Source: a virus
Virus record (IMG/VR): IMGVR_UViG_3300017917_002765
Location: 64,001 to 128,000 of that record
DNA: 64,000 bases
Strand: one strand, 5' to 3'
Of this stretch, positions 7,153 to 64,000 are shown piece after piece. The stretch's first letter is position 1. Each line of letters starts with the position of its first letter. The notes under the pieces were generated by a model that searched no databases, was not told where the DNA came from, and saw nothing but the letters and a program-made list of their open reading frames with translations. The translations under genes were made by a program, and so were the position numbers.

Positions 7153-7160
7153 ATAAATAT
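7153..7160 (-). promoter_or_regulatory. putative late promoter ATATTTAT
   Basis: Recurrent motif 4 nt before the NUDIX ATG. Confidence 0.55.
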
Positions 7161-7542: not shown

Positions 7543-7570
7543 AAAAAGCCCCTTTATGGGGCTTTATTTT
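7541..7570. terminator. bidirectional intrinsic terminator
   Basis: AAAGCCCC-tttat-GGGGCTTT between convergent genes. Confidence 0.85.
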
Positions 7571-8284: not shown

Positions 8285-8497
8285 TTATATTTTAAAACCA
8301 GTAAAGATTACAGTTAATATATAGGATATCGATGTTCCTAAGAAAAATAGAGACCATGATGATAACTTATACTTAACTGGAATTTCCTCAGTTGATGTCA
8401 TGAAAGCTTGTATAAAATAATATCCATGTCTAATTACTACCAAACAAGATAGAAAAAACAAAGCAATCAAAAACTTATTTAATAATACAATTAACAT
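8285..8497 (-). CDS. small two-TM membrane protein
   Basis: 70 aa with two hydrophobic helices. Confidence 0.65.
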   Translation of the reverse strand: MLIVLLNKFLIALFFLSCLVVIRHGYYFIQAFMTSTEEIPVKYKLSSWSLFFLGTSISYILTVIFTGFKI

Positions 8498-9476: not shown

Positions 9477-10091
9477 TTATGCTTTTAACCAAGCGTAAAA
9501 TTGATTGGTTTTAGCTGTTCTATCATCCAAACCATGTGTTCCACCATTTATTTTTTTGGTAATGGATAAAATTGTTTCCGCATTTACACCTTTATCAGCA
9601 ATTTCCCATAATTTATTTTTTGTAAAGAAAAACATAGCTGATTCAAAAGATAATTCAGTTGCAACCAATTCTGGATTTGTCATGATTTCTGGTTTGTTTA
9701 AGTGTTCTGATAATTGTCTATAGTTGTCTTTACCAGTTGTTTGTAAGGCACCTCTACCTCTGAATAAAAACCCTTCTTTTGATGCTTCGTTACCATTTCC
9801 CATTCTATTGGCATAAACTCTAGATGCTATTTTTTCTGGATTTTTAGCATATAATTCAGCTAAATTACCTGGAAAATACTTAGTAAAAACTTTATTTAAA
9901 CCATCCACCGAATAATTTAAATTTTCAGTGAATGTTGAGTAATTTCCAGTTTCATGTGCTGTTTGTCCAAAAAAGTGTGCAGCTCTTTCTGGTGTTAGGT
10001 TAAAAAAAGCAGCTGCTTTTTTCAAAGTAGTTGGTCCAAATACACCATCAGGTGTGACACCAATTTTTTCTTGTAGTTTTTTTAAACTCAT
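9477..10091 (-). CDS. GH19 (chitinase-like) endolysin with N-terminal peptidoglycan-binding motif
   Basis: PG-binding motif LQEKIGVTPDGVFGPTT. GH19 motifs HFFGQTAHET, ENLNYS, YANRMGNG, FRGRGALQTTGKDNY and TKKINGGTHGLDDR. Confidence 0.9.
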   Translation of the reverse strand: MSLKKLQEKIGVTPDGVFGPTTLKKAAAFFNLTPERAAHFFGQTAHETGNYSTFTENLNYSVDGLNKVFTKYFPGNLAELYAKNPEKIASRVYANRMGNGNEASKEGFLFRGRGALQTTGKDNYRQLSEHLNKPEIMTNPELVATELSFESAMFFFTKNKLWEIADKGVNAETILSITKKINGGTHGLDDRTAKTNQFYAWLKA

Positions 10092-10114
10092 GGCTTTTGT
10101 TTTAGGTTTATTTA

Positions 10115-10792
10115 TTATTCTTTTTTATCGGATGCATATTTAACACCCATTATTGTACCGACAATACTAAATGCATTAGTTAAAAGAATACCAAACATGT
10201 TGCTCCATGTTGAACCAATTATTTGTGTTTCTTTATTCATAAAGATAGCAACTAAATATAAAATTGTTGTTGTTATTCCAACTCCAACGATTACATATAA
10301 GGCACTTTTAACTATTGTATTGATGAGTTCAAATTGAGTTTTCTTTTGAAGGACATCTAAATCGTTTTCAACATTCTTTTTAGCGTTTTCAGCTTCCTGT
10401 CTTGCCAATTCAGATTTTTTCATTTCTTCAACAAGTTCTCTACCAATTCTTTCATTATCTTCTTTCCAAGCAATCAATTCTCTATTTTGCAATTCAATCT
10501 GATTTTTTGAATCTTCAACACTTTTTAGTGTTTCTTGGATTTCAACCATCATTTTCTCGTTTTCATTATTAAGGTCAGATAACTCTTTATTTTTTGTTTG
10601 GATTTGTTTTGTCATTTCCAGACGTTTCTTACGAACTTCTTTATCTCTAGTAAAACAATCATCAAGATACTTCTTGAATTCTTCGTCACCAGATGAATCA
10701 ATTAGTCTAATAATATTACCTTCTAACCCTATATTTTTTTTATTATATAGTTCTATAAGGTCTTTTCTAGTTGTTTCATCTAACTGTATCAT
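10115..10792 (-). CDS. coiled-coil protein with two C-terminal TM helices (holin-like candidate)
   Basis: A long heptad-rich region followed by two hydrophobic helices. Its start overlaps the receiver stop (TAATG). Confidence 0.75.
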   Translation of the reverse strand: MIQLDETTRKDLIELYNKKNIGLEGNIIRLIDSSGDEEFKKYLDDCFTRDKEVRKKRLEMTKQIQTKNKELSDLNNENEKMMVEIQETLKSVEDSKNQIELQNRELIAWKEDNERIGRELVEEMKKSELARQEAENAKKNVENDLDVLQKKTQFELINTIVKSALYVIVGVGITTTILYLVAIFMNKETQIIGSTWSNMFGILLTNAFSIVGTIMGVKYASDKKE

Positions 10793-11223
10793 TATTTGTA
10801 AATTTTAAAAGGTGCCGTTCTATTCTTATAGCCTTTGTAATCTTTTTTAAATTCCTCTAGTCTTGGTTCTATTTCGTCTGACTTAATAATCCAGAATTGA
10901 GCACCAGCTTGAATTGCTTTAGCTTGTTCTTCTGATTCGTTTGATGAAGAAATAATACCAATTACCACATGGTTACCGTATTCAAAATTGATTCGTCTAA
11001 TTAATTCTATACCATCAAATGATGAACCAATTATGTTTAAATCAACAAATACACATTCTGGTTTGTCTTGCGGGTCCTTATACCATTTCTTAAACAATTC
11101 AGCAGCTTCATCTGAACTCTTTAACGTTTTAAGTGATAGTGTAATGTCTAATAGACTGCAACAGTCTTCAAAAACTAAGTGGAATAAATCCTCATCATCC
11201 ACCAACAACAATGAATCAATCAT
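10792..11223 (-). CDS. single-domain response regulator (receiver)
   Basis: Acidic pocket LLVDDE, phosphoacceptor VFVDLN, ISSS, and GAQFWIIKS with the conserved Lys. No output domain. Confidence 0.9.
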   Translation of the reverse strand: MIDSLLLVDDEDLFHLVFEDCCSLLDITLSLKTLKSSDEAAELFKKWYKDPQDKPECVFVDLNIIGSSFDGIELIRRINFEYGNHVVIGIISSSNESEEQAKAIQAGAQFWIIKSDEIEPRLEEFKKDYKGYKNRTAPFKIYK

Positions 11224-11224
11224 T

Positions 11225-12352
11225 TTAATTTGTTTTATTTAAGTTTATTGTTATTTTTGTACCAATTTCCAATTTTTCGGAAGTTATTTTAAATCCGTGT
11301 TCCTTAAGTATTGCAACACATATATTTAACCCTAAACCGCTGCCACTTTCTTTTTGACCTTCTTTTCTTGTATAAGGTTTTGATAGTTTTAAAAACTCTT
11401 CTTGTGTTAAACCTCTACCATTATCTTGTATTATTATTTCATTAGGATTTTCAAAATAAACTTTAACTATTTTAGTACTACTGTCATTATATTTCAAACC
11501 ATTTCTAATCAAATTATCTATTGCAGTACAAAATAATGGTTCATTAACTTCTATTGTGGGTAAACTATCATCTAAGATTACTTGAGAAACATATGCTGTC
11601 GAGGACAAATAGTCTTTGAGAATGTCTTTGATATTACACATAGTTTTTGTTAGACAAGCATCTTTTTTAACTAGATTTGTAAATTCATAAACACCTTTAT
11701 AAACCTTTTGAGTGTGTCTAAGCCCTTCTTTAATCATTTTCATAGGGGCCTCTATTTTAAGATTTTCAATATCTTCTGGTTTTAATCTACGTTCAAGTGA
11801 ACTTAATCCTCTTGGTATGTAAGTGTTGATACCAGAGTGCATATCGTGACGTATGATTTTAGCAGCGTGTTCTAAATAGGTGTTTTTTCTCTCTATTTCA
11901 TCTTTTGCAGCCATTATTTCGGTAACGTCTTGTCTAATAGAAACAAAACCTTTAAGACTTCCAATTTCATCAAATTCTGCTTTAATAAAAGTGTCTACAT
12001 AATATAATTCACCATTTTTTGTTTTATTGATACAGACACCATTCCATATTTTTTTATCTTTAAGAACCGTTTTGTACATTTCAAACCACATGTCCTTTGG
12101 ATGAATACCAGAATTGAGAATATTATGGTCTTTACCTATAACTTCATGCAATTTCCACCCAGATACAATTTCAAACTTTTTGTTAACATATGTTATCTTA
12201 CCATGTTTATCAGCTTTGGTTATAATAGCAGCTTCATCAATAAAAGCTTCTAGTTCACGCAATTCTTTAACAACCTTATCATTCTTAATAAATGATGTTA
12301 AAGCATAGAGATTGCATTTAAATTTATTAAAAAAATTTTTAAAAACTTCCAT
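11225..12352 (-). CDS. soluble PAS-domain sensor histidine kinase
   Basis: PAS/PAC (GKITYVN...IRQDVTE), H-box IIRHDMHS, N-box NLIRNGLKY, G1 DNGRG and G2 GSGLGL. No TM helix. Confidence 0.92.
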   Translation of the reverse strand: MEVFKNFFNKFKCNLYALTSFIKNDKVVKELRELEAFIDEAAIITKADKHGKITYVNKKFEIVSGWKLHEVIGKDHNILNSGIHPKDMWFEMYKTVLKDKKIWNGVCINKTKNGELYYVDTFIKAEFDEIGSLKGFVSIRQDVTEIMAAKDEIERKNTYLEHAAKIIRHDMHSGINTYIPRGLSSLERRLKPEDIENLKIEAPMKMIKEGLRHTQKVYKGVYEFTNLVKKDACLTKTMCNIKDILKDYLSSTAYVSQVILDDSLPTIEVNEPLFCTAIDNLIRNGLKYNDSSTKIVKVYFENPNEIIIQDNGRGLTQEEFLKLSKPYTRKEGQKESGSGLGLNICVAILKEHGFKITSEKLEIGTKITINLNKTN

Positions 12353-12400
12353 TTATACTAACAAACTATTTACTTTTTTATTTTATAACCTTTGTCACTT

Positions 12401-12408
12401 ATAAATAT
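12401..12408 (-). promoter_or_regulatory. putative late promoter ATATTTAT for the kinase-receiver-membrane-endolysin cluster
   Basis: Recurrent motif immediately after the terminator at 12420-12448. Confidence 0.55.
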
Positions 12409-12419
12409 CTTTATAAAAT

Positions 12420-12448
12420 AAAAAACCCCCTAAATTAGGGGGTTTTTT
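12420..12448 (-). terminator. intrinsic terminator
   Basis: AAAAAACCCCCTA-aat-TAGGGGGTTTTTT. Confidence 0.9.
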
Positions 12449-12467: not shown

Positions 12468-14396
12468 TTACAAATCACCATATTTTTTCATCTCATCATA
12501 GATTTTTTCTGCTCTGTCAATGGCTTTCATTGATTTGTCTTTTGCAATTGATGTATAAATTTCATCATCTGGAACGTCAATCATTTCACCTTTAACCATA
12601 ATTTTGAATTCATCTCTAGCATTTGAGAATAATTTGAAACCTTCATCATCCATTGATGTTGAAGATGGCACCACAAGGTCTTCTTCATCATCAGCTTTTA
12701 TGTCAGTTGGTAAATCGGTTTTAAAATCACCAACTTCTGGTTCTTTTTCGTCAGAATCGTTATCATCAGATTTTGCCCAGTTGCTATCATCAGCTGGTTC
12801 TTCTCCTTCTTCGTCATCGATTTCTGGTTCAGATGGTAAGTCAGAAAATTCTTCCTCTTCTTCCTCAGTTACTTTTTTTTTTGAAAGTTCTTCCATGTAT
12901 TCTTTCATCATAGATTCTTCATCCATTGGTTCTTCATTCATAAGGTCAAAAGTTTCATCCATCATTTTACCTTCTTCTTGTTCTTCTTTAGCCTCACTTT
13001 TCATCCAACCTTCTTTTGTTTCTGTTTCATCCTTTCTTTTTTTAGAATAACAACCAACAACACAAGGTTTTTTACCTTCTTTTTCTTTATCTTCAGAATT
13101 TTTTTTCACTATACTTGATGAACCGTCTTTATTATTTTTATACTCATAATCTTTTTCTTTTTCTTTGGTTTCTTTAAGGTGAACGTGTTTTTTAGCTTCT
13201 GGTGCTTGTGAAACATCAGCATCTTCCCAGTGACCTTCTTTTGGTTTAGCATCTGATTCAATGTTTTTGCCAGATGAACTCTTCATAGGCTTCTTAGCTT
13301 CTGGAGCGTGAGAAACAGCCTTATCAGGGTTTCCATCTTTACTCTTAGCAATAGGGGAATCTTTCTTAACAGAACCTGACACATGCTTGGTTGATTCAGC
13401 AGCTTTTTTGGTTTCTTCATCCCAATTACCCTCTTTAGCATCAGCACCTTCCATATCTTCTGATTCAGTCATCAAAGATTTGGTTTTATTCCAAATATCA
13501 CCAAAAATTTTATTTTCATCAAGTCTTTCTTTACCTTTTAAAACACCAAGAGTTTCATGTGATTTATAACCAAATAAGGCTTTCATTCTGTTAATATCTT
13601 CATTAACTAAATTTTGGTCAGCAGCAGTTAACACAACAGCTTTACCTTCGTTTAATGAACCTTCCCAACGGATTTTGTATGATTCGTTTCCATCAGTCAT
13701 TTCAAATATTTTGTTATTTACTCTATACGCTTCTGGGATAAGTTTTAAAGCGTTTCCAACACCATTAAATGGGTTTTTGAATTTTAATCTTTTCATGGTT
13801 TCTTTTATTTGTGGTTTATTGTTATCGTCTTTTTTTACATCACTTTCATTTACAGCTGAAAATCTTGTATTTTGTAAATTAGGTCTCGATTCGTTTTCTA
13901 CGTCATCACCAAAACTGTAAAGTCCTTTTTCAGCATCAGCTCTTTTCTTGAATGAAGCTTTAATATTCTTCACCAAGTTCTTACCAAATTCTGGTCCTTG
14001 AAATCCTTTTTGTTTTTCAACAACATTAGCCCATTCAGGGTTATTACCCATATTTGAACTACCTTCAATAGCTTCTATAGCTCTTTCTTTAAATCTTTTA
14101 TTTGGTTCTGAAGCATATTGAATCATCTCTTGACCGTTCATGATTTCCATTTGGTCATGATATGTCTTTTCAGACTCATAATCGTAGTTAAATTTATTAG
14201 GCGCCATTTGGTTGGCGTTAGGGTCTTCCTTAACAGCCTTTTCAAATTCAGCAACCTTTTTTTCTATGTCTTTAACACCATCTTTGTTTTCTTTAGCCGA
14301 TTTTTTCTTAGCAGCATTTGTTACAGAAATACCTGGAGTAACTTCTTCTGATAAGAATTTTTTTGCTAGGTGTTTTTTAATTATGTTTTTGTTCAT
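12468..14396 (-). CDS. large acidic protein, putative capsid-internal/head protein
   Basis: 642 aa, E/D/K-rich, with an LVNEDINRMKAL motif and internal repeats. A late motif lies at 14413-14420. Confidence 0.7.
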   Translation of the reverse strand: MNKNIIKKHLAKKFLSEEVTPGISVTNAAKKKSAKENKDGVKDIEKKVAEFEKAVKEDPNANQMAPNKFNYDYESEKTYHDQMEIMNGQEMIQYASEPNKRFKERAIEAIEGSSNMGNNPEWANVVEKQKGFQGPEFGKNLVKNIKASFKKRADAEKGLYSFGDDVENESRPNLQNTRFSAVNESDVKKDDNNKPQIKETMKRLKFKNPFNGVGNALKLIPEAYRVNNKIFEMTDGNESYKIRWEGSLNEGKAVVLTAADQNLVNEDINRMKALFGYKSHETLGVLKGKERLDENKIFGDIWNKTKSLMTESEDMEGADAKEGNWDEETKKAAESTKHVSGSVKKDSPIAKSKDGNPDKAVSHAPEAKKPMKSSSGKNIESDAKPKEGHWEDADVSQAPEAKKHVHLKETKEKEKDYEYKNNKDGSSSIVKKNSEDKEKEGKKPCVVGCYSKKRKDETETKEGWMKSEAKEEQEEGKMMDETFDLMNEEPMDEESMMKEYMEELSKKKVTEEEEEEFSDLPSEPEIDDEEGEEPADDSNWAKSDDNDSDEKEPEVGDFKTDLPTDIKADDEEDLVVPSSTSMDDEGFKLFSNARDEFKIMVKGEMIDVPDDEIYTSIAKDKSMKAIDRAEKIYDEMKKYGDL

Positions 14397-14437
14397 CTTT
14401 TATGATTTAATAATAAATATCTTCGTTTTTAGTAAAG

Positions 14438-16369
14438 TTAATTCGCTTTAGGTGTGTTGTTTGAACTTTCACTCAATGAAGGAGCATTAACATTACTACC
14501 AGTTGTCTTTAATTTAACAACATTGTCAACGGCTCCTTGGCTACAACCACCTTTTTGTGCTTTTTTGCTGTTATTATAACCCACACAGTTTTTGTCAAAA
14601 CTAACCATAGCACCACCAGCATATTGGGTTTTCTTAAAAGCTTTTGGTTTCTTATTTGAAAATTCAGTTGGTGATTTCATTGCAAACGCTGAAGCTGTAT
14701 ATTGTCCAGATGAAGCAGCAGTTGTTGTTTCACCTACTACTGGTACATCCAAATCGTTTGTATCTACTGGCATTTCTCTCTTGGTCATACCCATTGGTGC
14801 TGTAAATGCTCCAGATGACGCAGCAGTTGTTGTTTCTTCAATACCATAACGAGCTTTTAACTTTTCATAGTAAAATTCAAAAGGCATTTCATATAAGTCA
14901 GCCAATACTTTTGCCATTTTAATTACATCGTCTTTGGTCTTTGGTGGTTTATTTTCTTTTGGAGTGGTTGCTTTTATAATGCTCCTTGAAAACTTATCAA
15001 AAACAGAATCTTCAGTTTCGTTTATTGAACCTAACGCTTCTACAAAAGATTTATCTTTATCATACATCTTTAAAAGCTCATCTTTTAAAGGCAAATCAAT
15101 TTTAACCAAATCAACACCATCTTCCCAATCATCAACACCTTCTCCTGTTGTAAGAATATTTAAGTTGTCGTTCACATAATTTCCCAAAATATCGGAATCA
15201 ATGTCAAAATCACCATAATCAAATTCTGGTTGACCATCTTCATCTTTGTCAATATAGTCTCTAGAAACTTCGGCATATGGGCTAAAATCATCTTTATCTA
15301 TCATACCATAGTAAAAATAATATAATGACCCATCACGACCTTTAAGAATTGCTGATTCTCTATTGTACGCAATAACATCAAATAATGATTTTTTAGGTAT
15401 TCTAGCTTTATCCATATCATGCCATGGCGCATTACGGTCATATTCAGCACCAGCTGGTAAATAACCATCAGCTTCTGTTTTTAAAGTCTCGTTTTTATTA
15501 CCAATAAGATTTCTCAATTCGTTTTCAACTGCCATAATGGTTTCTTCTGGTGTACCAAATTTCTTTGATAATTCACACATACCGTTTTCTGTCACAACAA
15601 GACCTCTTGATTTTAAAGCATCTTGAATGTCATCATAGGTTAAACCATGTTTATCCCAAAATGGTGAAAATTGGTCTGTTTTACGATAAAAATATTTTAT
15701 TAAGTCTTTTGTTTCTTTCTTTAATTCCTCATCGGTTTCCATAAGTGGTTTTCCGAATTTTCCTTGAATTGAAGAAGGTAATGAAGGGTTTTTCTTTTTA
15801 ATATCAAAATTTTCTTCTTCTCCTAAATTTTTAATATCAGCACCAGCAAAATATTTTTTAAATTGCTTGTCTGTAGGGTCCATAGCTTCATTTATTAAAC
15901 CAGAAGCAAAGATTCTATTATATTGTTCTTTGGTTATTTTTAATTTTGACACCCCTGTTGGTTTCATTGCTGAAGGCGCTGTGTCAACTACCAATCCATT
16001 AGCTAATATTTCCATTGAACGACCAACACCAGTTATTTTTGGTTCAACATCCATTCCTGTATTTATACTTTTAAGGTTTCTTTTGATAGCATCAAATTCA
16101 TTAGAATCAGTTTTTTTACTGACTATTTTATTAGTCAATTCGTTATATGCAGCGTCAGAATTCTTATCTCTGTTTAAGATGGCTTTAATAACTGCATTTC
16201 TAATGTTTTCTTTTTGTAATGGTTCACCAGAAATAACAATTCTTCTTAAATCTGGACCAAGAGAAACCATTTTACTAATGCTTGAGTCTGGTTCATTCCC
16301 TTCTCCCTCATTAATTTTTTTAATACCAAGTAATTTAGCTTGTTTTTCAGTTATTATGATTTTTTTCAT
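14438..16369 (-). CDS. large putative virion/head protein
   Basis: 643 aa. The MKKIIITEKQ motif recurs internally as KLKITKEQY, and ETTTAASSG occurs twice. Confidence 0.7.
   Translation of the reverse strand: MKKIIITEKQAKLLGIKKINEGEGNEPDSSISKMVSLGPDLRRIVISGEPLQKENIRNAVIKAILNRDKNSDAAYNELTNKIVSKKTDSNEFDAIKRNLKSINTGMDVEPKITGVGRSMEILANGLVVDTAPSAMKPTGVSKLKITKEQYNRIFASGLINEAMDPTDKQFKKYFAGADIKNLGEEENFDIKKKNPSLPSSIQGKFGKPLMETDEELKKETKDLIKYFYRKTDQFSPFWDKHGLTYDDIQDALKSRGLVVTENGMCELSKKFGTPEETIMAVENELRNLIGNKNETLKTEADGYLPAGAEYDRNAPWHDMDKARIPKKSLFDVIAYNRESAILKGRDGSLYYFYYGMIDKDDFSPYAEVSRDYIDKDEDGQPEFDYGDFDIDSDILGNYVNDNLNILTTGEGVDDWEDGVDLVKIDLPLKDELLKMYDKDKSFVEALGSINETEDSVFDKFSRSIIKATTPKENKPPKTKDDVIKMAKVLADLYEMPFEFYYEKLKARYGIEETTTAASSGAFTAPMGMTKREMPVDTNDLDVPVVGETTTAASSGQYTASAFAMKSPTEFSNKKPKAFKKTQYAGGAMVSFDKNCVGYNNSKKAQKGGCSQGAVDNVVKLKTTGSNVNAPSLSESSNNTPKAN
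14706..14836 (-). repeat. 26-bp intragenic direct repeat (ETTTAASSG x2)
   Basis: ccagatga(a/c)gcagcagttgttgtttc at 14706-14731 and 14811-14836. Confidence 0.9.
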
Positions 16370-19619: not shown

Positions 19620-19650
19620 AACATTCTTTTTTTAATAAATATCTAAAACA

Positions 19651-19673: not shown

Positions 19674-20501
19674 TTATTCATTAAGTAGAACATACAAATC
19701 GTGGGCATTATTGCGTAGTTTACGAATTGCTTTCTCTTTTATTTGTCTTATTCTTTCTTTTGTTAAACCATATCTCTCACCAATCGCTTCCAATGTCATT
19801 GGTTCGCAATCAATGTTTATACCAAAATATGATTCAATTATCGCTCTTTCTCTATCATTTAATACTGATAATGCGTTATTTATTTCATCCCTAAGTCTAT
19901 TATCAACAACAAACATTTCTTCATCAACGTTGTCTGGAATAAGTTCAATAAGTTCATCACCATCTTCATTTATAACTTCATTTAATGATGTGTGTCTAGG
20001 ATAAGTAACTAAACTTATCGCTTCGTTTTCTTTGTCAAATATTTCACCAAATATTGGTTCCCTTTCATTCTCAAGTTCAAACTTTGCTATTTCTTTATTT
20101 AATTGTAAAATCCTATTGATTACATTGGCTGGTAATCTTACGACTCTAGCATTATCATTCAAACTTTGGATAATTGATTGCTTAACCCACCATACGGCAT
20201 ATGAAATAAATCTAAAACCTTTGTTATGGTCAAATTTTGTTGCTGCTTTTATTAATCCGTAATTACCTTCATTTATTAAGTCTGATAACGGTAAACCCTG
20301 TCCTTGATATTCTTTTGCTATTGAAACAACAAACTTTAAGTTTGCATTTACTAATTTATTTATAGCATTTTGGTCACCATTTTTTATTTTTTTAGCTAAT
20401 TCAATTTCTTCGTTCTGTGTTAATATAGTTGATTTTCTTACATCTTTAAAATACTTCCCTAAACTGTCATCGTTGTTAAAGTTTACAAATTTTTTACTCA
20501 T
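19674..20501 (-). CDS. sigma-70 family RNA polymerase sigma factor (Bacteroidota RpoD-like, no region 1.1)
   Basis: ANLKFVVSIAKEY, DLINEGNYGLIKAA, GFRFISYAVWW and RVVRLP motifs. Region 4 reads TLEAIG...TKERIRQIKEKAIRKLR. Confidence 0.92.
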   Translation of the reverse strand: MSKKFVNFNNDDSLGKYFKDVRKSTILTQNEEIELAKKIKNGDQNAINKLVNANLKFVVSIAKEYQGQGLPLSDLINEGNYGLIKAATKFDHNKGFRFISYAVWWVKQSIIQSLNDNARVVRLPANVINRILQLNKEIAKFELENEREPIFGEIFDKENEAISLVTYPRHTSLNEVINEDGDELIELIPDNVDEEMFVVDNRLRDEINNALSVLNDRERAIIESYFGINIDCEPMTLEAIGERYGLTKERIRQIKEKAIRKLRNNAHDLYVLLNE

Positions 20502-23555: not shown

Positions 23556-24317
23556 ATGGAATTATTTAATTATCAACTAGATTTATTAGAATCTTATAAA
23601 ACAAATCGATTTGTTTTGGTTAAACATAGTCGACAAATGGGTATAACCACCACTATTATCGAACACATAATCTATTTATTATTAGATAACAAAAAACATA
23701 AAATTACGCTAATAACACCAAGCTTATCTGTTGGTAAAGAAATTCTAAATAAAATTAGGGTTGACGCTAGAATTATACACGCTGGTGTTTTTGACCAAAA
23801 AACAAATAAAATAGTGCTTAAAAACAATAACCAAATTAAAATAGGTCATAATTCTTGTGTGTTTCGTGGTGAAATAGTTACCGATGTTATTATTGATAAC
23901 GGGTGTTTTCTTAAAAACTTAAATGATGTTATTAGTAACGCAAAAGTAAACATCACCCAAAATTATGGTTCTATTATAATAGTTTCTTCAAATAAAAAAG
24001 GATTTACTTATTTTAATGAACTGTTTAATAAAACAGATAATCTATTCAAAAAACATTTAATCCATTGGCATATGAATCCTAATTATGATGAAAAATGGTA
24101 TGAAGAAATTAAAAATTTATATTTTGATAGTGATAAATTAAAATGTGAATATGATTTAATTGACATCGAAGAAACCAAAAAAACAAAAGATAGATTAATA
24201 AGTTTTCGCTTAACTGACGACATATACACCATTTTAACTGAAAATTTACTAAAAAGAGACATGTCATTGTCTGAATATTTAAGATTGTTAATTAAAAAAG
24301 ATTTCAATGGAAAATAA
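23556..24317 (+). CDS. terminase large-subunit ATPase-like domain fused to a C-terminal ribbon-helix-helix
   Basis: LFNYQ (Q motif), KHSRQMGITT (Walker A region), VIIDNG (Walker B with DN), and HWHMNP. The C-terminus ISFRLTDDIY...SLSEYLRLLI is RHH-like. There is no nuclease domain. ATATTTAT lies at 23516-23523. Confidence 0.7.
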   Translation: MELFNYQLDLLESYKTNRFVLVKHSRQMGITTTIIEHIIYLLLDNKKHKITLITPSLSVGKEILNKIRVDARIIHAGVFDQKTNKIVLKNNNQIKIGHNSCVFRGEIVTDVIIDNGCFLKNLNDVISNAKVNITQNYGSIIIVSSNKKGFTYFNELFNKTDNLFKKHLIHWHMNPNYDEKWYEEIKNLYFDSDKLKCEYDLIDIEETKKTKDRLISFRLTDDIYTILTENLLKRDMSLSEYLRLLIKKDFNGK

Positions 24318-32260: not shown

Positions 32261-32315
32261 ATATTATAAATATCTTTTTTTTATTTTAATTATAAATATC
32301 CTATAGTCAATAATA

Positions 32316-50253: not shown

Positions 50254-50310
50254 TTGCTTGTTTTTACATAAATATTATAGCTAAAGATTTTTGTAAGTAA
50301 ATGTGCAAAT

Positions 50311-53497: not shown

Positions 53498-56002
53498 TTA
53501 TTCACCTTCTAAGGCTTCTCGTCTAGCTTTTGAAGCTATAAATACTTCTGCTGCCCTATTAACACCAGCCCTTTCAACATCTTCACGGTGTTCTACACGT
53601 GTTCTACCAACCTTATTTTGATTCATGTCAATTTGTATTTTTGCATTATCAAAAATAATGTCTTCGAATATGATACCGTCCTTACCGAAACGTGATTTAA
53701 GAATAGCCATCGTAGCGGTTCCAGCATCTTTTTGGTCAAGATTCTTTGCTATAGACACAATAAAGTGACCTATTTGACCTTTCTTGATTGAACCACCCAT
53801 TTGGTCAGCTTCTACTACGTTTGCTTTTATAGAACTTCTGTTACCTTGCACGGCTGTCCATCCAGCTACATCTAACTCAGCTAACATTGATTCAAATTGA
53901 CGCATTACACTACCTTCACCAGAGAATATGTCATCATATTGTCTAGATGGTTGTACACAATCAATGTAGTCTAATAGAACAATATCTGGTCTAAAACCTT
54001 CAGCAATTTTTTTTCTGATGTATTGTCTAATCATAGGCATAGTAGTTCCATCACTAGGAAACTTTTTAAGCTTTAAGATACCTCCACCAGATTTTGATTC
54101 TAATTCTTTTTTAACACACATATCAATAATCTCATCCTTATGTAATGCAAGACTATTAAGGTCAATTCCAGACCAACAAGCTAAGTGTTTTCTCTGGATA
54201 ACTTTTGGGTTGTCCTCAAAGAATATTTGTAAAACATTGTGACCATCGTTTACAGCAGTGTTAGCAAGCTTGGTAATCATGGTGGTATTATGCGTTACAA
54301 TATAATCATCAGTAACGTATAAATGTTCTGGGTTATCAACCATAATACATTTAGCATCCTCTTCACCAAAATATTCAATAGATTCTATAAATTTATTTTC
54401 AGAATATTTTGTTCTAGGTTTAAATTTATTTAGTTTTCTAGCTAATCTACTTGGAACAACACCATTATCTGGAAAACTGAAAGTAATTCGATAATATGTT
54501 TTACAAAATGTATCACCATACTTACCAATTTGTTCAGTTATTGACACCCTACCACCTAATGATAGAATTAATTCTCTAATACCAATTGATAAATTTTTAG
54601 AAACCGTGGATATCTCAAGCCTATGTCCGTCAACATACCCATCAGTGTCAACTAATCCTTGTAATAAACTAACCCTATCAGACACTGATGAGTAAAGATA
54701 ATCTGTTGGTATGAATTTAGAGGTGGAATTACTACCATACAAATTAAGCTTAACCAATGAGTCTTTAATACCCAATAACGAAACCTTAATTAATGAGCGT
54801 TTGATTAATACTAATTCACCATCAACGTCTTTTTCAATATTTCTATTTTGTTCACTAATTGAAATATTCTTATAAACTTTATTAACTTCAGAAATGATTT
54901 CATTATCTTTAGTAACAAAATGTGGTTGATTTGACGTTGTTATACAACCATCACCAAGAATTACACCTAATAAATATGGGTCAATTATTAACTCTTTTTT
55001 GTTGAATTCAACTGGTGATACGATAGGAATTTTATAATTTAACCTTTTACCATTCCAAACCTTAACATTATTAACCATATCAATAGTTTTCATCACTTTA
55101 AAAGAGTTGTCTGATTCTAAATAAATAATCTTACCATCTTTTTTAGTTTTCCTATTTCTTTGGTTAATAGTGTTAACACTCCATAAATGTTCAGCGTCAC
55201 ACAATGTTTCTGTACCATCATTTATTTTAACCTTATATATCGGCCTTTTACCTTGTGAGAAAACACCAATTACTTTTGTAGGCTTACCATCTCTACTAAT
55301 AACATATTCACCAACATTAATTTCACCCATTGTTTTCCAACCATTTGGTGTTAATATTTTAGAAAACAATGGTTGAGCTTTACCAACACCAAATGGTGCA
55401 AGTATTACCGCCAATTCACCCTTAGATAAGCCACCGTCCATGACTTCATCCAAACCCTTGATACCAGTTCTTATTGGTTTCCTAAAATCATCAACCAACA
55501 CATTATCAATATTATCAAAAATATCCATGCCATCATCTTTATTGTCACCATGTTCCAATGCTTTCCTTAAAATGGTTTCACATTGTTCATAATTTTCAAT
55601 ATCACCAACATCTATGATTTTTTGAATTTGTTTGATTGATTTTTTTAATTCTTGTTGTTTGCAAAATTTCATTGCGATGTCTTGAACTTTAAGACCATCA
55701 TATGAACTAGCTTCTTGAATCTTGGCTAATTGCTTAATAATATATTTTCTTTGTATATCATCAGTCACGCTTTCAAACAATCTAAACTTAATACTTCCCA
55801 TATCTGGGACAATATCATCTTTTTCTTTAGCTTCTTTTACAGTGGCAGCAATTACTCTTAGATAAGAATCGCTAAAATAATTTGGGTCGACTATATCTAT
55901 AATAGCATTTGCGAATTTTCTATCTATTAACAGTTGAGCTATAAGACGAAATTCATAGTCTATACCCAAAAAAGCTAAATTATCTCTGTTTATCTTTGCC
56001 AT
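53498..56002 (-). CDS. dnaB: DnaB-like replicative helicase containing an intein
   Basis: TGIKGLDEVMDGGL. The P-loop APFGVGK|TT is split by the intein. Also LLDYID, TAVQGNR and KSRFG. Confidence 0.92.
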   Translation of the reverse strand: MAKINRDNLAFLGIDYEFRLIAQLLIDRKFANAIIDIVDPNYFSDSYLRVIAATVKEAKEKDDIVPDMGSIKFRLFESVTDDIQRKYIIKQLAKIQEASSYDGLKVQDIAMKFCKQQELKKSIKQIQKIIDVGDIENYEQCETILRKALEHGDNKDDGMDIFDNIDNVLVDDFRKPIRTGIKGLDEVMDGGLSKGELAVILAPFGVGKAQPLFSKILTPNGWKTMGEINVGEYVISRDGKPTKVIGVFSQGKRPIYKVKINDGTETLCDAEHLWSVNTINQRNRKTKKDGKIIYLESDNSFKVMKTIDMVNNVKVWNGKRLNYKIPIVSPVEFNKKELIIDPYLLGVILGDGCITTSNQPHFVTKDNEIISEVNKVYKNISISEQNRNIEKDVDGELVLIKRSLIKVSLLGIKDSLVKLNLYGSNSTSKFIPTDYLYSSVSDRVSLLQGLVDTDGYVDGHRLEISTVSKNLSIGIRELILSLGGRVSITEQIGKYGDTFCKTYYRITFSFPDNGVVPSRLARKLNKFKPRTKYSENKFIESIEYFGEEDAKCIMVDNPEHLYVTDDYIVTHNTTMITKLANTAVNDGHNVLQIFFEDNPKVIQRKHLACWSGIDLNSLALHKDEIIDMCVKKELESKSGGGILKLKKFPSDGTTMPMIRQYIRKKIAEGFRPDIVLLDYIDCVQPSRQYDDIFSGEGSVMRQFESMLAELDVAGWTAVQGNRSSIKANVVEADQMGGSIKKGQIGHFIVSIAKNLDQKDAGTATMAILKSRFGKDGIIFEDIIFDNAKIQIDMNQNKVGRTRVEHREDVERAGVNRAAEVFIASKARREALEGE
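54287..55378 (-). mobile_element. class 3 intein with LAGLIDADG homing endonuclease (364 aa)
   Basis: Begins with Ala (AQP) and ends VTHN before Thr. It has the W-C-T triad (EHLW, AKCIMV, VTHN) and LAGLIDADG motifs LLGVILGDG and LQGLVDTDG. Confidence 0.9.
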
Positions 56003-61975: not shown

Positions 61976-64000
61976 TTAAACAATAGGTGGTTTTGCATTA
62001 GCTTTGATAGTTTCATAATCAATTTCTGGTGATTTATTTGGATTTAAGTTTTTCCAAGTAGATATTAAAGCTTTAGCTACGTCTAACGCACAAAATTTAG
62101 CTGATGCGCTATTTCCAGCTTTACCACCATACAAACTAGTTTTTTGTAAATATCCTCCTGGATTTATTTTTTTAATCGCAATTTCTTTATTTGGACCAAA
62201 AAATGTTGGCATTGATGCAAATTCTAACGCTAAATCTGTTATTGCTGATTGCAAATCTGATTCTTTACCTGTGCTATTTTGACTAAAATAATTTCTCAAA
62301 CCTTTTCTATTATTTCCACCGTAAATAATTAACCAAATACCAGCTTGTTCTTGTTTTTTAGCATCAAATATATCATCATCTTTAAATTCTAAACTAGTCA
62401 CCATAGCTTTAAATGTTTCTGGTATTAATTGATATTTACCAACAGCAAAAATTCTTTTTACATCATTTTCTGGTAATGCTTGTAATTCCTTAATTCTTTT
62501 AATAGTAAAAATTGATGGTTTGTAATTCATATTACCAGAAACACCAGCAATACCTGTATTATATGCGTCATATCCAGCAAGACCGCTTTCAACACTAGCG
62601 ACTAAATCTCTTATTGGTTTAGTTGCTGTTAATGTAGGAACTTCAGTATCTGTTGTTAAATCTTTTACCCCTCTAACATTATACGTACCACATGTATCGT
62701 CACCTACCACCCAACTTCCAATAGAACTTTGACTACCAAAAGTTGTACCTTCAGTTGTATTAAATTGTTTTATGTTTTCTAATAATGACATATAAAAATC
62801 ACTTGTAGAAAACAATGTTGTTTTTGGTCTTTTAATTCTAACACCAGTGAAATTGGTGGACATATGATTTGGTTTGATACTATGTGTTACTTTAATAATC
62901 ATATAGGCACCATGAAACATTGGAATGTTATCCAACTGAAAATACATCATGGGTTGAATCATGACATTACCCATCATTTCAATTTCAGCTTTATAACTTC
63001 TTACTGACCATATATTATACATGTTTTGTCCACCTATTGTTCTGTATTTTGGATTACCTCTTTGTGATATGTCTTCCATTATTTGTTGTGATTCTAGTGT
63101 TTCACTAAATTCACTTTGGTCTAAGACTATATCTTTGAATAAATTTTGATTTTGTTGACCATAAACAACTTTAAATGCAGTTACAGGTAAATCATTTTCA
63201 CCAAGTGCGCTGTTAAAATCTTCTGGAGCATCAGTTAAATCTTCACTTAAATCAAAACCATCATTTAAATATTCTGAATTTGTAAAATCTAAACTGTTTG
63301 ATGCCTCTCCAATATATGTACAAATAAATGTTGGTCCATATGTTGAATTTTTAAAATTATCATAAGTTGGAAAAGTTTTAAAAATTGAATCTAAAGAGTT
63401 TTGGTCTCTATAATTAATAAAATTAGGTAAAGGAACAAAATTAAAATTATTTGATGATAATAAACTTGTTATTAAATCATATGAACTAGAATTTACATTA
63501 TCTGTTAAATAATCCATCAACGGAAATGGGTTTACAGCTAACGTATCACCTATATCTTTAAATGCTCTATCTAAAAACCTAAAACTATCAATCAAATTTA
63601 TTTGTTGAGTATTACTATCTGTTGATTCACATTGAAAGAATATTGACCCTGGATTTTTTACACCACCAATCCATTTATCATAAATGTTTTTACAAAGTTT
63701 ATATAACTGAAGCTTAATTAATTTATCGCTTACAGTACCAAAAATTTCTTGTTTTAATTGTTCTTCCTCATTTAAACCTACAGATTCTGTGTTACCACTA
63801 AATTTATTTACAAGTATTTTTATGTAAGTATCTAAAGATTTTTTATCAACATCAAAATCTTTTCTGTTTAAAAAGTCATCACTCTGTGGCTTATTATTCC
63901 AAATACGGTAATTTGTGTTAGCTATAAAAATTTCTTCTTTATACAAAGAAATTAAATCTTGGTTTATTGCTGCATCATCTCTTAATTCTAACCATAAATT
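61976..64000 (-). CDS. baseplate hub-like protein with C-terminal lysozyme-like domain (5' end outside window)
   Basis: The frame is open to the window edge. Hub-like segment SYKAEIEMMGN..IQP..YF......GAYMIIKVTHSI, followed by VASVESG..YDAYN, AVGKYQLIPET and EFASMP muramidase-like motifs. Confidence 0.7.
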   Translation of the reverse strand, partial: NLWLELRDDAAINQDLISLYKEEIFIANTNYRIWNNKPQSDDFLNRKDFDVDKKSLDTYIKILVNKFSGNTESVGLNEEEQLKQEIFGTVSDKLIKLQLYKLCKNIYDKWIGGVKNPGSIFFQCESTDSNTQQINLIDSFRFLDRAFKDIGDTLAVNPFPLMDYLTDNVNSSSYDLITSLLSSNNFNFVPLPNFINYRDQNSLDSIFKTFPTYDNFKNSTYGPTFICTYIGEASNSLDFTNSEYLNDGFDLSEDLTDAPEDFNSALGENDLPVTAFKVVYGQQNQNLFKDIVLDQSEFSETLESQQIMEDISQRGNPKYRTIGGQNMYNIWSVRSYKAEIEMMGNVMIQPMMYFQLDNIPMFHGAYMIIKVTHSIKPNHMSTNFTGVRIKRPKTTLFSTSDFYMSLLENIKQFNTTEGTTFGSQSSIGSWVVGDDTCGTYNVRGVKDLTTDTEVPTLTATKPIRDLVASVESGLAGYDAYNTGIAGVSGNMNYKPSIFTIKRIKELQALPENDVKRIFAVGKYQLIPETFKAMVTSLEFKDDDIFDAKKQEQAGIWLIIYGGNNRKGLRNYFSQNSTGKESDLQSAITDLALEFASMPTFFGPNKEIAIKKINPGGYLQKTSLYGGKAGNSASAKFCALDVAKALISTWKNLNPNKSPEIDYETIKANAKPPIV

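What the first reader, a model, noticed from the sequence alone, without database searches (positions are those of the whole stretch)
9477..12448. Phage two-component system wired into a lysis cassette: PAS kinase, receiver, coiled-coil 2-TM protein, GH19 endolysin
Seen: after a strong terminator and a late-type ATATTTAT motif come four tightly coupled genes (1-nt gap, TAATG overlap, 23-nt gap). They are a soluble PAS histidine kinase with intact H/N/G boxes (atypical H-box RHDMHSG), a receiver with all phosphorylation residues but no output domain, a long coiled-coil protein ending in two TM helices, and an endolysin without a signal peptide. Known: stand-alone receivers act by protein-protein contact (CheY-like), such endolysins need a holin, and complete two-component systems are rare in phages. 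Inference: the phosphorylated receiver may control the 2-TM protein as a holin or antiholin, letting the phage time lysis to host physiology. That would be a phospho-relay lysis clock.
Basis: partly seen in the sequence, partly recalled or inferred. Interest (0 to 1): 0.85.

Follow-up and report, generated by a model that had tools for sequence, protein, structure and literature searches.

The report
Phage sensor relay beside its lysin
An uncultured 137-kb freshwater phage carries its own sensor kinase, a bare phospho-receiver and a virus-only membrane "hairpin" protein next to its cell-wall-cutting enzyme, and the gene neighbourhoods of related phages suggest that this module adjusts the moment of host bursting to the state of the cell.

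Summary
On the minus strand lie a soluble PAS histidine kinase (11225-12352), a receiver-only response regulator (10792-11223), a 225-aa protein with a coiled coil and a C-terminal 2-TM hairpin ("TM2", 10115-10792) and a GH19 endolysin (9477-10091). The spacings are as stated, and a terminator plus an ATATTTAT motif lie upstream.

Kinase-receiver-TM2 is a conserved trio: 83 of 86 informative viral loci. Receiver and TM2 overlap by 1 or 4 nt in 60 of 72 unique pairs. The lysin link is looser: an endolysin lies within four genes in 42 of 95 loci, and one relative has it about 58 kb away.

The hairpin family is virus-only. It also occurs fused directly to PAS or GAF sensor domains. Those fusions have an endolysin of one of four enzyme types within three genes in 69 of 80 loci.

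The kinase's PAS domain best matches the FAD redox sensors MmoS, NifL and Aer, and keeps three of four named flavin-contact residues.

My reading (about 0.5): a redox/energy-sensing relay acts at protein level on a membrane hairpin that controls lysis timing. No step has been tested experimentally.

Four literature searches found no description. Earlier agents of this scan reached similar readings on other DNA.

The parts
12420..12448 (-). Intrinsic terminator ending the upstream gene (12468-14396)
   Evidence: stem of 13-15 pairs with 5 G-C pairs, followed by a T run. Sequence read.
12401..12408 (-). ATATTTAT promoter-like motif, 49 nt upstream of the kinase ATG
   Evidence: 28 copies in the window against 17.1 +/- 4.7 in shuffles; 20 of 63 genome copies lie within 60 nt upstream of ORFs of 100 aa or more, often with CTTTT(T) about 12 nt further upstream. 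The timing class is not established.
11225..12352 (-). Soluble PAS histidine kinase, 375 aa. PAS domain is aa 42-145 (nt 11918-12229). H-box His169 is nt 11846-11848. HATPase_c is aa 274-373 (nt 11234-11533).
   Evidence: Pfam hits. No hydrophobic segment. Best PDB matches of the PAS domain are 3ewk (MmoS, 7e-21), 9qq6, 8dik (Aer) and 2gj3 (NifL). H76, N109 and R140 align with MmoS H132, N164 and R195.
10792..11223 (-). Stand-alone receiver, 143 aa. The phospho-acceptor Asp61 is nt 11041-11043. The C-terminal tail TAPFK(I/V)Y(K/R) is conserved.
   Evidence: Pfam Response_reg only. D9, D10, D61, S92 and K114 are invariant in 34 sequences with 86% mean column identity. Receiver fold with pLDDT 87. 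At least 500 PDB chains match at E <= 0.001, and those listed are receiver domains.
10115..10792 (-). TM2, 225 aa, of a virus-only family. N-terminal small domain is aa 1-36 (nt 10685-10792). Coiled-coil stalk is aa 37-162 (nt 10307-10684). The 2-TM hairpin with a short charged tail is aa 163-225 (nt 10118-10306).
   Evidence: AlphaFold model and hydropathy. The hairpin is near-invariant in 35 relatives. Stalk length varies only in whole heptads. No Pfam, NCBIfam or PADLOC family. No PDB fold match. Its start overlaps the receiver stop by 1 nt.
9477..10091 (-). GH19 endolysin, 204 aa, with no signal or SAR segment
   Evidence: Pfam Glyco_hydro_19. phrog_181 endolysin at 1.3e-55. 68% identical to the endolysin of Flavobacterium phage immuto. 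No hydrophobic peak.
8285..8497 (-). 70-aa ORF with two hydrophobic segments. It is the only other membrane protein on the same strand before the next terminator, so it is an alternative holin candidate.
   Evidence: peaks at 3-21 and 50-68. Conserved only in L017 and L018. No family hit.
7545..7565 (.). Two-way terminator. It is the first terminator-like site on the minus strand downstream of 12420-12448, so the unit may run from the kinase through nine genes.
   Evidence: This is a consensus scan only; transcripts were not observed.

Best explanation
This is a phage-encoded signalling module whose output is a membrane protein, not transcription.

Proposed mechanism:
1. A soluble kinase senses the infected cell's redox or energy state through a PAS domain of the MmoS/NifL/Aer (FAD) type.
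2. The kinase autophosphorylates on His169 and passes the phosphate to Asp61 of a receiver that has no output domain.
3. The receiver then acts by contact on the cytoplasmic N-terminal domain of the translationally coupled TM2 protein.
4. TM2's rigid, heptad-phased coiled coil transmits the change to a near-invariant 2-TM hairpin.
5. The hairpin promotes or restrains permeabilisation or depolarisation of the inner membrane, and so sets when the signal-less GH19 endolysin reaches the wall.

What is shown: the domains, the intact catalytic and phospho-acceptor residues, conservation and coupling of the trio, direct fusion of PAS and GAF sensors to the same stalk and hairpin in other phages, and the position of those fusions in lysis cassettes.

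What is inferred: phosphotransfer, receiver-TM2 contact, the FAD/redox signal, and whether the effect on lysis is positive or negative.
For: (a) An intact two-component pair. It has PAS + HATPase_c and Response_reg domains. The H-box His was conserved in all 53 HSPs that reach a histidine-kinase H-box; the other 29 of the 82 HSPs show F there, which I take to be first PAS domains of double-PAS kinases aligned past their end. The receiver residues D9, D10, D61, S92 and K114 are invariant.

(b) The trio is conserved. TM2 has 317 relatives in IMG/VR, of which 80 were fetched. By my reading, 83 of 86 loci with enough upstream DNA have HK-RR-TM2 in this order. Three distant contigs found in the genome collection have it too.

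(c) RR and TM2 are the tightest pair. They overlap by 1 or 4 nt in 60 of 72 unique pairs, and 10 more have gaps of 8 nt or less. Inputs vary while the output is constant: soluble PAS here, but GAF-PAS-PAS, membrane-anchored PAS-PAS, or a second kinase with a signal-like N-terminus in relatives.

(d) Domain-swap evidence. A hairpin-only profile found 113 representative clusters. Among them are PAS-PAS-stalk-hairpin (P0034), PAS-stalk-hairpin (P0030) and GAF-stalk-hairpin (P0006). Of 68 representatives scanned, 4 carry PAS, 1 carries GAF and none carries a receiver. Cytoplasmic sensors therefore drive this hairpin directly in other phages.

(e) Link to lysis.
- PAS-PAS-hairpin loci have an endolysin within 3 genes in 69 of 80 cases (29 directly adjacent). 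The nearest enzyme is GH19 in 41, GH24 in 12, PG_binding_1/phrog_3000 in 8 and M15 in 8.
- 53 of 63 distinct 7-gene contexts contain an endolysin.
- 2 of 3 GAF-hairpin loci have a GH19 lysin within 2 genes.
- Two-component loci have an endolysin within 4 genes in 42 of 95 cases, on either side and on either strand.
- TM2 directly precedes the lysin in the window, L017 and L018, and also in the distant L016, whose TM2 is 51% identical.

(f) The stalk varies only by whole heptads. The anchor spacing is 59, 66, 73, 80, 87 or 94 residues in 73 of 74 unique TM2 proteins, and 45-94 in 12 representatives. All values equal 3 modulo 7.

(g) PAS type. The best PDB hits are MmoS 3ewk (7e-21), 9qq6, Aer 8dik and NifL 2gj3. 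NifL is also the best NCBIfam hit. Three of the four flavin-pocket residues named in PMC9668731 (passages read) are kept: H76, N109 and R140.

(h) The lysin has no export signal, so it needs a membrane lesion to reach the wall. That requirement is established holin biology (passages of PMC9025707).
Against: - In 53 of 95 two-component loci no endolysin of the four recognised types lies within four genes. Some of these loci are cut short upstream.
- In one relative (G003) the GH19 lysin is about 58 kb from the module.
- TM2 is three times the size of typical holins and matches no holin family in Pfam or PHROGs.
- Its hairpin is near-invariant across clades, whereas the holin-like genes beside the lysins differ between clades.
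- Related cassettes often hold their own holin-like genes. Phage_holin_4_1 lies within 3 genes in 13 of 80 loci, and other small 2-TM proteins occur as well.
- The fourth flavin-contact residue is Ala, not Thr, in the window.
- Only 38 of 82 related PAS alignments keep the Asn and Arg, and by eye the fused PAS domains of P0034 do not, so a flavin signal cannot be general.
- No expression, binding or activity data exist.
Confidence: 0.5

Rival explanations
1. TM2 is itself the phage's holin, a large class-II-like hole or pinhole former with both termini in the cytoplasm. The phosphorylated receiver simply gates its triggering, and no separate holin exists in this phage.
For: - TM2 lies 23 nt upstream of a signal-less endolysin.
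- The genome has no homologue of the holin candidates of related phages (c71, c31, c263, c18) or of the immuto holin at E <= 0.01.
- TM2 has two TM helices with a short charged C-terminal tail.
- Its second TM helix carries an invariant stripe of small and polar residues: N198, T205, S209, G212, T213, G216. This recalls the glycine-zipper face used by pinholin S21 68 (passage in PMC9025707).
Against: - In other clades the same hairpin co-occurs with a Pfam-recognised holin (Phage_holin_4_1) and with other small 2-TM genes next to the lysin.
- TM2 is often separated from the lysin, or far from it.
- It matches no holin family.
- A 70-aa 2-TM ORF (8285-8497) lies in the same putative unit and could be the holin.
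Confidence: 0.2
2. The module controls a membrane process other than lysis, such as superinfection exclusion, envelope or energy management during infection, or interference with a conserved host membrane machine. Its nearness to lysins would then reflect shared timing or a shared variable genome region.
For: - More than half of the two-component loci have no endolysin within four genes, and one has it about 58 kb away.
- The near-invariance of the hairpin across divergent phages fits binding to a conserved host membrane target.
- Neighbours of the module vary widely and include a DnaK/Hsp70-like protein (my reading of the sequence, not scanned), phosphoesterase-like genes and others.
Against: - Sensor-fused hairpins lie within three genes of an endolysin in 69 of 80 loci. 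This holds across four unrelated lysin types and 53 of 63 distinct contexts, which is hard to explain by descent alone.
- I estimate about 5% by chance for one lysin in a genome of 120-150 genes. This is my estimate, not a computed control.
Confidence: 0.22
3. The kinase and receiver mainly act on host targets: cross-talk with host two-component proteins, or a CheY-like action on a host machine. TM2 would be an unrelated neighbour.
For: - The receiver is the most conserved of the three proteins, with 86% mean column identity and an invariant C-terminal tail, as expected if it contacts a conserved partner.
- Stand-alone receivers act by protein contact (established knowledge of CheY-type regulators).
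Against: - RR and TM2 overlap in 60 of 72 unique pairs.
- RR is missing next to TM2 in only 2 of the 86 informative loci, L091 and L095.
- PAS and GAF fusions to the same stalk and hairpin show that the hairpin protein is a signalling output in its own right.
Confidence: 0.08

Closest known systems
T4 lysis inhibition: holin T with antiholins RI and RIII
   Same: Lysis time is set at protein level by a sensor input acting on a large holin with a soluble regulatory domain. T is described as a cytoplasmic N-terminal domain, one TM helix and a periplasmic domain, and RI blocks its oligomerisation (abstract of PMC11413866). A cytoplasmic regulator (RIII; recalled) is a conceptual counterpart of the receiver.
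   Different: There is no sequence or fold relation. TM2 has no Pfam or PHROG holin hit. The T4 signal is superinfection sensed in the periplasm. Here the input is a cytoplasmic PAS kinase and a phospho-relay, and the regulatory domain of TM2 is cytoplasmic.
Pinholin S21 68 and its antiholin S21 71 (class II, two TM helices)
   Same: Both have a two-helix hairpin with both termini in the cytoplasm, and a small-residue zipper face on the second helix. Triggering is tied to collapse of the proton motive force (passages of PMC9025707).
   Different: S21 68 is a small protein with a 5-aa N-terminus (PMC9025707) and has no sensor input, whereas TM2 has a cytoplasmic stalk of about 160 aa. The window's lysin has no SAR anchor, so depolarisation alone would not release it.
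LytSR two-component control of the holin-like lrgAB/cidAB genes in Firmicutes
   Same: A two-component system is linked to holin/antiholin-like membrane proteins and to cell lysis (search listing and abstract of PMC6997555; the rest is recalled).
   Different: LytR is a DNA-binding regulator that acts on transcription, and the system is cellular. Here the receiver has no output domain, the system is viral, and the inferred control is by protein contact.
FAD-binding PAS redox sensors MmoS, NifL and Aer
   Same: These are the best PDB and NCBIfam matches of the kinase's PAS domain. The residues aligning with Aer H53/N85/R115 and MmoS H132/N164/R195 are conserved.
   Different: The residue equivalent to Aer T18 / MmoS T103 is Ala. 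The outputs of the known sensors are chemotaxis signalling, NifA inhibition or a hybrid kinase, not a bare receiver and a membrane hairpin. Flavin binding was not tested.
Single-domain response regulators (CheY, Rcp1/RcpA, the bacteriophytochrome regulator)
   Same: A receiver fold without an output domain. Rcp1, RcpA/B and the Deinococcus phytochrome regulator are among the best structural matches.
   Different: Sequence identity is only 15-24%. This receiver has its own invariant C-terminal tail. It is encoded by a virus and always lies next to TM2.

Membership tests
Classical two-component system (histidine kinase + receiver) | Kinase with an H-box histidine and an N/G1/G2 ATP-binding domain | tested here: met
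   HATPase_c at 5e-14. RHDMHSG, NLIRNGLKY, DNGRGL and GSGLGL are read. The His is conserved in all 53 HSPs that reach an H-box (53 of 82 HSPs in all). No Pfam HisKA hit, so the H-box region is atypical.
Classical two-component system (histidine kinase + receiver) | Receiver with an acidic pocket, a phospho-acceptor Asp, and conserved Ser/Thr and Lys | tested here: met
   D9, D10, D61, S92 and K114 are invariant in 34 sequences. Response_reg at 2.4e-9. Receiver fold.
Classical two-component system (histidine kinase + receiver) | Phosphotransfer from the kinase to the receiver | not testable with these tools
   Requires an in vitro assay. Only adjacency is shown: a 1-nt gap in the window, and gaps of -8 to 37 nt in 58 of 61 unique pairs.
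Holin (functional class) | Membrane protein with at least one TM helix and a charged C-terminus, encoded beside the endolysin | tested here: met
   Two TM helices, tail KYASDKKE, 23 nt upstream of the lysin.
Holin (functional class) | Match to a described holin family | tested here: not met
   No Pfam, NCBIfam or PHROG lysis-family hit. The only hit is phrog_6631, of unknown function, at E 0.005. No PDB fold match.
Holin (functional class) | Forms lethal membrane lesions that release the endolysin | not testable with these tools
   Requires expression and lysis assays.
FAD-binding PAS redox sensor (MmoS/NifL/Aer type) | Flavin-pocket residues equivalent to Aer T18, H53, N85 and R115 (PMC9668731) | tested here: inconclusive
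   H76, N109 and R140 are conserved, but the Thr position is Ala47. Among related PAS alignments H is kept in 82 of 82, N in 38 of 82 and R in 38 of 82. Flavin binding itself was not tested.
LytSR-type transcriptional control of holin-like genes | Response regulator with a LytTR DNA-binding output domain | tested here: not met
   The receiver is 143 aa and carries Response_reg only. The model shows only a 25-aa tail after the receiver fold.
Known anti-phage defence systems with kinase/receiver parts (e.g. Detocs; name recalled) | Match to PADLOC models | tested here: not met
   No hit for the kinase, the receiver or P0034. TM2 gives only coiled-coil noise at E 0.002.

The most novel reading that the evidence does not exclude
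A virus-only family of sensor-gated membrane hairpins forms a signal-transduction layer on phage lysis. In some phages a PAS or GAF sensor is fused to the stalk and hairpin. In this phage and its relatives a complete phage-encoded two-component relay drives the hairpin through a bare receiver. This would be the first phage two-component system with a non-transcriptional, membrane-level output. It would let large phages of Bacteroidota-type hosts bring lysis forward or delay it according to host redox or energy state.
Probability: 0.45. Interest if true: 0.88.

Novelty: new variant of a known kind. Interest (0 to 1): 0.78.

Why it matters
Lysis timing sets phage fitness. So far it is known to be set by holin accumulation and a few antiholins. 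T4's lysis inhibition is the main case of an external signal feeding into it.

A phage-borne sensor kinase and receiver acting on a membrane effector would add real signal transduction to lysis control, reading redox or energy state inside the infected cell.

It would also define a new output class for stand-alone receivers, and a new effector family with hundreds of members in IMG/VR. The system is compact and could be rebuilt from four genes.

For ecology, it would mean that abundant freshwater phages adjust burst timing to host physiology.

If the lysis link is wrong, the conserved trio with its heptad-phased stalk and invariant hairpin is still an undescribed viral signalling module that needs an explanation.

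Tried and rejected
- Receiver + TM2 complex prediction: no answer. Scores were 0.26 and 0.28 against a mark of 0.32, and the controls were not run. This counts neither for nor against binding.
- RNA evidence: no RNA holder is listed. The best DNA holder may be the source sample. I did not use read laying because contigs of DNA runs cannot show transcripts.
- Foldseek of the TM2 model against the PDB: no match at E <= 0.001.
- ESM Atlas for TM2: only virus clusters named 'hypothetical protein'.
- PADLOC and NCBIfam gave no family for TM2. The kinase and receiver hits were all below the curated cut-offs, except the generic PAS S-box domain model TIGR00229 (44.8 bits against a cut-off of 22.9).
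- tblastn of the receiver and of TM2 against 50,697 GenBank phage records: no match. The kinase gave only partial domain hits, such as Aer-like PAS domains in P1-like records.
- Search of the window's own genome for homologues of the holin candidates, spanin-like genes and small TM proteins of relatives, and of the immuto holin, YneF and gp192: nothing at E <= 0.01.
- 'Jumbo phage' is rejected: the genome is 136,575 bp, although relatives reach 322 kb.
- 'Late' promoter could not be settled.
- A defence-system reading (Detocs-like) and a LytSR-like transcriptional reading are rejected.
- Prophage or cellular origin of TM2 is rejected. There are only 4 hits in one genome each of 185,579 species. 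All are on MAG contigs of four unrelated phyla, which I take to be mis-binned viral DNA.
- PAS-to-hairpin spacing in the fusions is constant: 92 residues in 54 of 57 unique sequences. It therefore gives no test of heptad phasing there.
- Literature: (listings and abstracts only) found no paper describing a phage two-component system tied to lysis. PMC7824862 (passages) describes only a different, kinase-independent receiver-like domain in jumbo phages. Supplements were not consulted.

Full report
**What is in the window**

The window is bases 64001-128000 of a single 136,575-bp virus record with about 30% G+C. Four co-oriented genes lie on the minus strand:

| Gene | Coordinates | Length |
|---|---|---|
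| Kinase (HK) | 11225-12352 | 375 aa |
| Receiver (RR) | 10792-11223 | 143 aa |
| TM2 | 10115-10792 | 225 aa |
| Endolysin (LYS) | 9477-10091 | 204 aa |

- They are separated by a 1-nt gap, a 1-nt overlap and a 23-nt gap.
- Pfam finds PAS and HATPase_c in the kinase, Response_reg alone in the receiver, Glyco_hydro_19 in the lysin and nothing in TM2. PHROGs calls the lysin an endolysin at 1.3e-55.
- A strong terminator (12420-12448) and an ATATTTAT motif (12401-12408) precede the kinase. The next terminator-like site on this strand is at 7545-7565, so the unit may continue through five more small genes.
- The kinase, receiver and lysin have no hydrophobic segment. TM2 has two, at 165-185 and 199-217.

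**The promoter label**

- ATATTTAT is enriched in the window: 28 copies against 17.1 +/- 4.7 in shuffles.
- 20 of its 63 genome copies lie within 60 nt upstream of an ORF of 100 aa or more. Most are 14-17 nt from the ATG, with CTTTT(T) about 12 nt further upstream.
- It precedes a baseplate wedge gene and a terminase-like fragment, but also a NUDIX gene and a helicase-like gene.
- It is a real promoter-like element, but 'late' is not established.

**Anatomy of the three signalling proteins**

Kinase:
- It shows an H-box (RHDMHSG, His169) and N, G1 and G2 boxes (box names recalled).

Receiver:
- It is the most conserved of the three, with 86% mean column identity.
- D9, D10, D61, S92 and K114 are invariant, and so is a C-terminal tail TAPFK(I/V)Y(K/R).
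- Its model is a standard receiver fold plus a short extension. Stand-alone phytochrome regulators are among the best structural matches.

TM2:
- It is modelled as a small N-terminal domain, one continuous helix from 37 to 184, a tight turn and a second helix 190-222 (pLDDT 86.8).
- Lysines flank both membrane helices on the stalk and tail sides. I infer that both ends, and the whole stalk, are cytoplasmic.
- Across 35 relatives the loop and second helix are almost invariant (DTQIIGSTWSNMFGILLTNAFSIVGTIMGVKYA), while the stalk changes in length.
- The stalk changes only by whole heptads. The spacing between an N-domain anchor and a hairpin anchor is 59, 66, 73, 80, 87 or 94 residues in 73 of 74 unique TM2 proteins, and 45-94 in 12 further representatives. 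All values equal 3 modulo 7.
- The phase between the N-terminal domain and the hairpin is therefore kept while length is free. This is expected of a continuous coiled coil that transmits a signal or holds a fixed geometry.

**Conservation of the trio**

- TM2 has 317 relatives in IMG/VR, of which 80 were fetched. The kinase search added 15 loci.
- By my reading of the tblastn table, 8 of the 94 fetched TM2 loci are cut off at or just before TM2 or the receiver.
- Of the remaining 86, 83 have kinase-receiver-TM2 in this order. L054 lacks an adjacent kinase, and L091 and L095 lack both.
- Receiver and TM2 overlap by 1 or 4 nt in 60 of 72 unique pairs, and 10 more have gaps of 8 nt or less.
- Inputs vary while the output stays fixed. 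Relatives have GAF-PAS-PAS kinases, membrane-anchored PAS-PAS kinases, and a second kinase with a signal-peptide-like N-terminus preceded by a secreted protein.
- The family is viral:
  - No GenBank phage record has a receiver or TM2 homologue.
  - Atlas clusters are 96-100% viruses.
  - Only four MAG contigs from four unrelated phyla match among one genome each of 185,579 species. Three of them again carry the trio.
- Signal peptides of neighbouring genes and the nearest lysins (Flavobacterium and Cellulophaga phages) point to Bacteroidota hosts. That host assignment is an inference.

**Is the module tied to lysis?**

For the two-component form the link is real but loose.
- I counted four endolysin types: GH19, an M15 peptidase, a PG_binding_1/phrog_3000 type and GH24.
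- An endolysin lies next to the module in 18 of 95 loci and within four genes in 42 of 95. It can be upstream or downstream and on either strand.
- Direct TM2-lysin adjacency occurs in the window's closest relatives (L017, L018) and also in the distant L016.
- Against this, 53 loci show none within four genes, though several of them are truncated.
- A search of five whole contigs found the GH19 lysin about 58 kb from the module in one relative (G003). Two others had weak GH19-like matches about 4 and 18 kb away, and two incomplete records had none.

**The decisive lead: sensor-fused hairpins**

- A profile of the hairpin alone, searched against 1.84 billion representatives, found 113 clusters.
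- These include proteins in which PAS-PAS (P0034), PAS (P0030) or GAF (P0006) replaces the N-terminal domain on the same stalk and hairpin. Of 68 representatives scanned, 4 carry PAS, 1 carries GAF and none carries a receiver.
- P0034 has 253 relatives in IMG/VR. In the 80 loci fetched, an endolysin lies within three genes in 69 and directly adjacent in 29. The nearest enzyme is GH19 in 41, GH24 in 12, PG_binding_1/phrog_3000 in 8 and M15 in 8.
- 53 of 63 distinct 7-gene contexts contain one.
- 2 of the 3 GAF-hairpin loci have a GH19 lysin within two genes.
- These cassettes often also hold a Pfam-recognised holin (Phage_holin_4_1, within three genes in 13 of 80) and spanin-like pairs.
- The hairpin protein is therefore a lysis-cassette component under the control of a cytoplasmic sensor. 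In those phages it is an addition to a holin rather than its replacement.
- The window phage has no homologue of any of those holin candidates. Its only other membrane protein in the unit is a 70-aa 2-TM ORF (8285-8497).

**What is sensed**

- The kinase's PAS domain best matches MmoS (3ewk, 7e-21), then 9qq6, Aer (8dik) and NifL (2gj3). NifL is also the best NCBIfam hit.
- PMC9668731 (passages read) describes these as FAD-based redox sensors. It names Aer T18, H53, N85 and R115 (MmoS T103, H132, N164, R195) as flavin-pocket residues.
- In the alignment these positions are A47, H76, N109 and R140 in the window, so three of four are kept.
- Among 82 related PAS alignments H is universal, but N and R are kept in only 38.
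- A flavin or redox signal is therefore plausible for this kinase but not general for the family.

**Mechanism I commit to (confidence about 0.5)**

1. The kinase reads redox or energy state.
2. It phosphorylates the receiver.
3. The receiver binds the cytoplasmic N-terminal domain of TM2.
4. The heptad-phased stalk transmits the change to the hairpin.
5. The hairpin's invariant face of small and polar residues (N198, T205, S209, G212, T213, G216) mediates helix packing or pore formation. This promotes or delays membrane permeabilisation, and with it endolysin release.

Holin triggering is known to be coupled to collapse of the proton motive force, and a glycine-zipper face is used by pinholin S21 68 (PMC9025707, passages). 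That is an analogy only. The sign of the effect, and whether TM2 is a holin, an antiholin or a depolarising trigger, cannot be decided here.

**Rivals**

- TM2 is the sole holin (0.2).
- The module has a non-lysis membrane function and co-locates with lysis genes (0.22).
- The receiver acts on host targets and TM2 is unrelated (0.08).

**Comparison with known systems**

- The module works most like T4 lysis inhibition, where a signal acts at protein level on a large holin (abstract of PMC11413866).
- In topology it resembles class II holins and pinholins.
- It shares the theme, but not the mechanism, of LytSR-lrgAB, because there is no DNA-binding domain here.
- It is not a member of any described holin, antiholin or defence family.

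**Literature and earlier notes**

- Four literature searches (listings and abstracts) found no description.
- Earlier agents of this scan read related loci on other DNA in a similar way.
- I confirmed the fused-sensor claim.
- I found the claim that 'most' two-component loci sit among lysis genes to be overstated: 42 of 95.

**Verdict**

I class this as a new variant of known kinds, namely a two-component relay and a lysis regulator, with an undescribed virus-only effector. The functional claim rests entirely on gene neighbourhoods and domain swaps.

Noticed in passing
window 12401-12408, 14413-14420, 19635-19642, 32266-32273, 50268-50275, 7153-7160 (all minus strand) and others genome-wide: A two-part promoter-like element: CTTTT(T), about 12 nt, then (G/C)ATATTTAT, usually 14-17 nt before an ATG. 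20 of the 63 genome copies lie within 60 nt upstream of ORFs of 100 aa or more. It precedes baseplate, terminase-like and homing-endonuclease-like genes, but also NUDIX and helicase-like genes. The phage sigma factor at 19674-20501 (phrog_351) could be its reader.
   Followed up: partly
window 10307-10684 (TM2 stalk) and TM2 genes of L002-L096: The coiled-coil stalk of TM2 changes length only in whole heptads, over a range of seven heptads (45-94 residues between the anchors, always 3 modulo 7).
   Followed up: yes
window 53498-56002 (-) and 23556-24317 (+): An 834-aa ORF matches both terminase-large-subunit-type and DnaB-like helicase PHROGs. A separate 253-aa ORF on the other strand matches the C-terminal part of terminase large subunits. 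Several homing-endonuclease-like ORFs lie elsewhere in the genome. Split or invaded genes are possible.
   Followed up: no
window 61976-63946 (-): A 656-aa ORF has an endolysin-like domain at residues 440-581 (phrog_90). This is a second peptidoglycan hydrolase, perhaps carried in the virion.
   Followed up: no
window 12468-14396 and 14438-16369 (-): Two very acidic, low-complexity proteins of about 640 aa lie directly upstream of the module. They match no family and are conserved only in L018.
   Followed up: no
L048:1242-4785 and similar loci (25 loci with cluster c13): Many relatives have two kinases. One is membrane-anchored with PAS-PAS. The other has a signal-peptide-like N-terminus and no PAS. 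A secreted protein of about 205 aa lies between them. This looks like a branch that senses outside the cytoplasm and feeds the same receiver.
   Followed up: partly
L023, L056, L058, L073, L092 (between kinase and receiver): A 240-aa ORF (cluster c134) is inserted between the kinase and receiver genes in five loci. From memory its N-terminus looks like a GIY-YIG homing endonuclease. I did not scan it.
   Followed up: no
L182-L185 (MAG contigs labelled Gemmatimonadota, Bdellovibrionota, Alphaproteobacteria, Promethearchaeia): The only hits to TM2 in the genome collection are on MAG contigs of four unrelated phyla. Three of them carry the full trio. They are most likely viral contigs binned into MAGs.
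   Followed up: partly
L059:4159-6024 and 22 other loci (cluster c12): A phage-encoded DnaK/Hsp70-like protein of about 620 aa lies near the module in many relatives. I identified it by reading the sequence and did not scan it.
   Followed up: no
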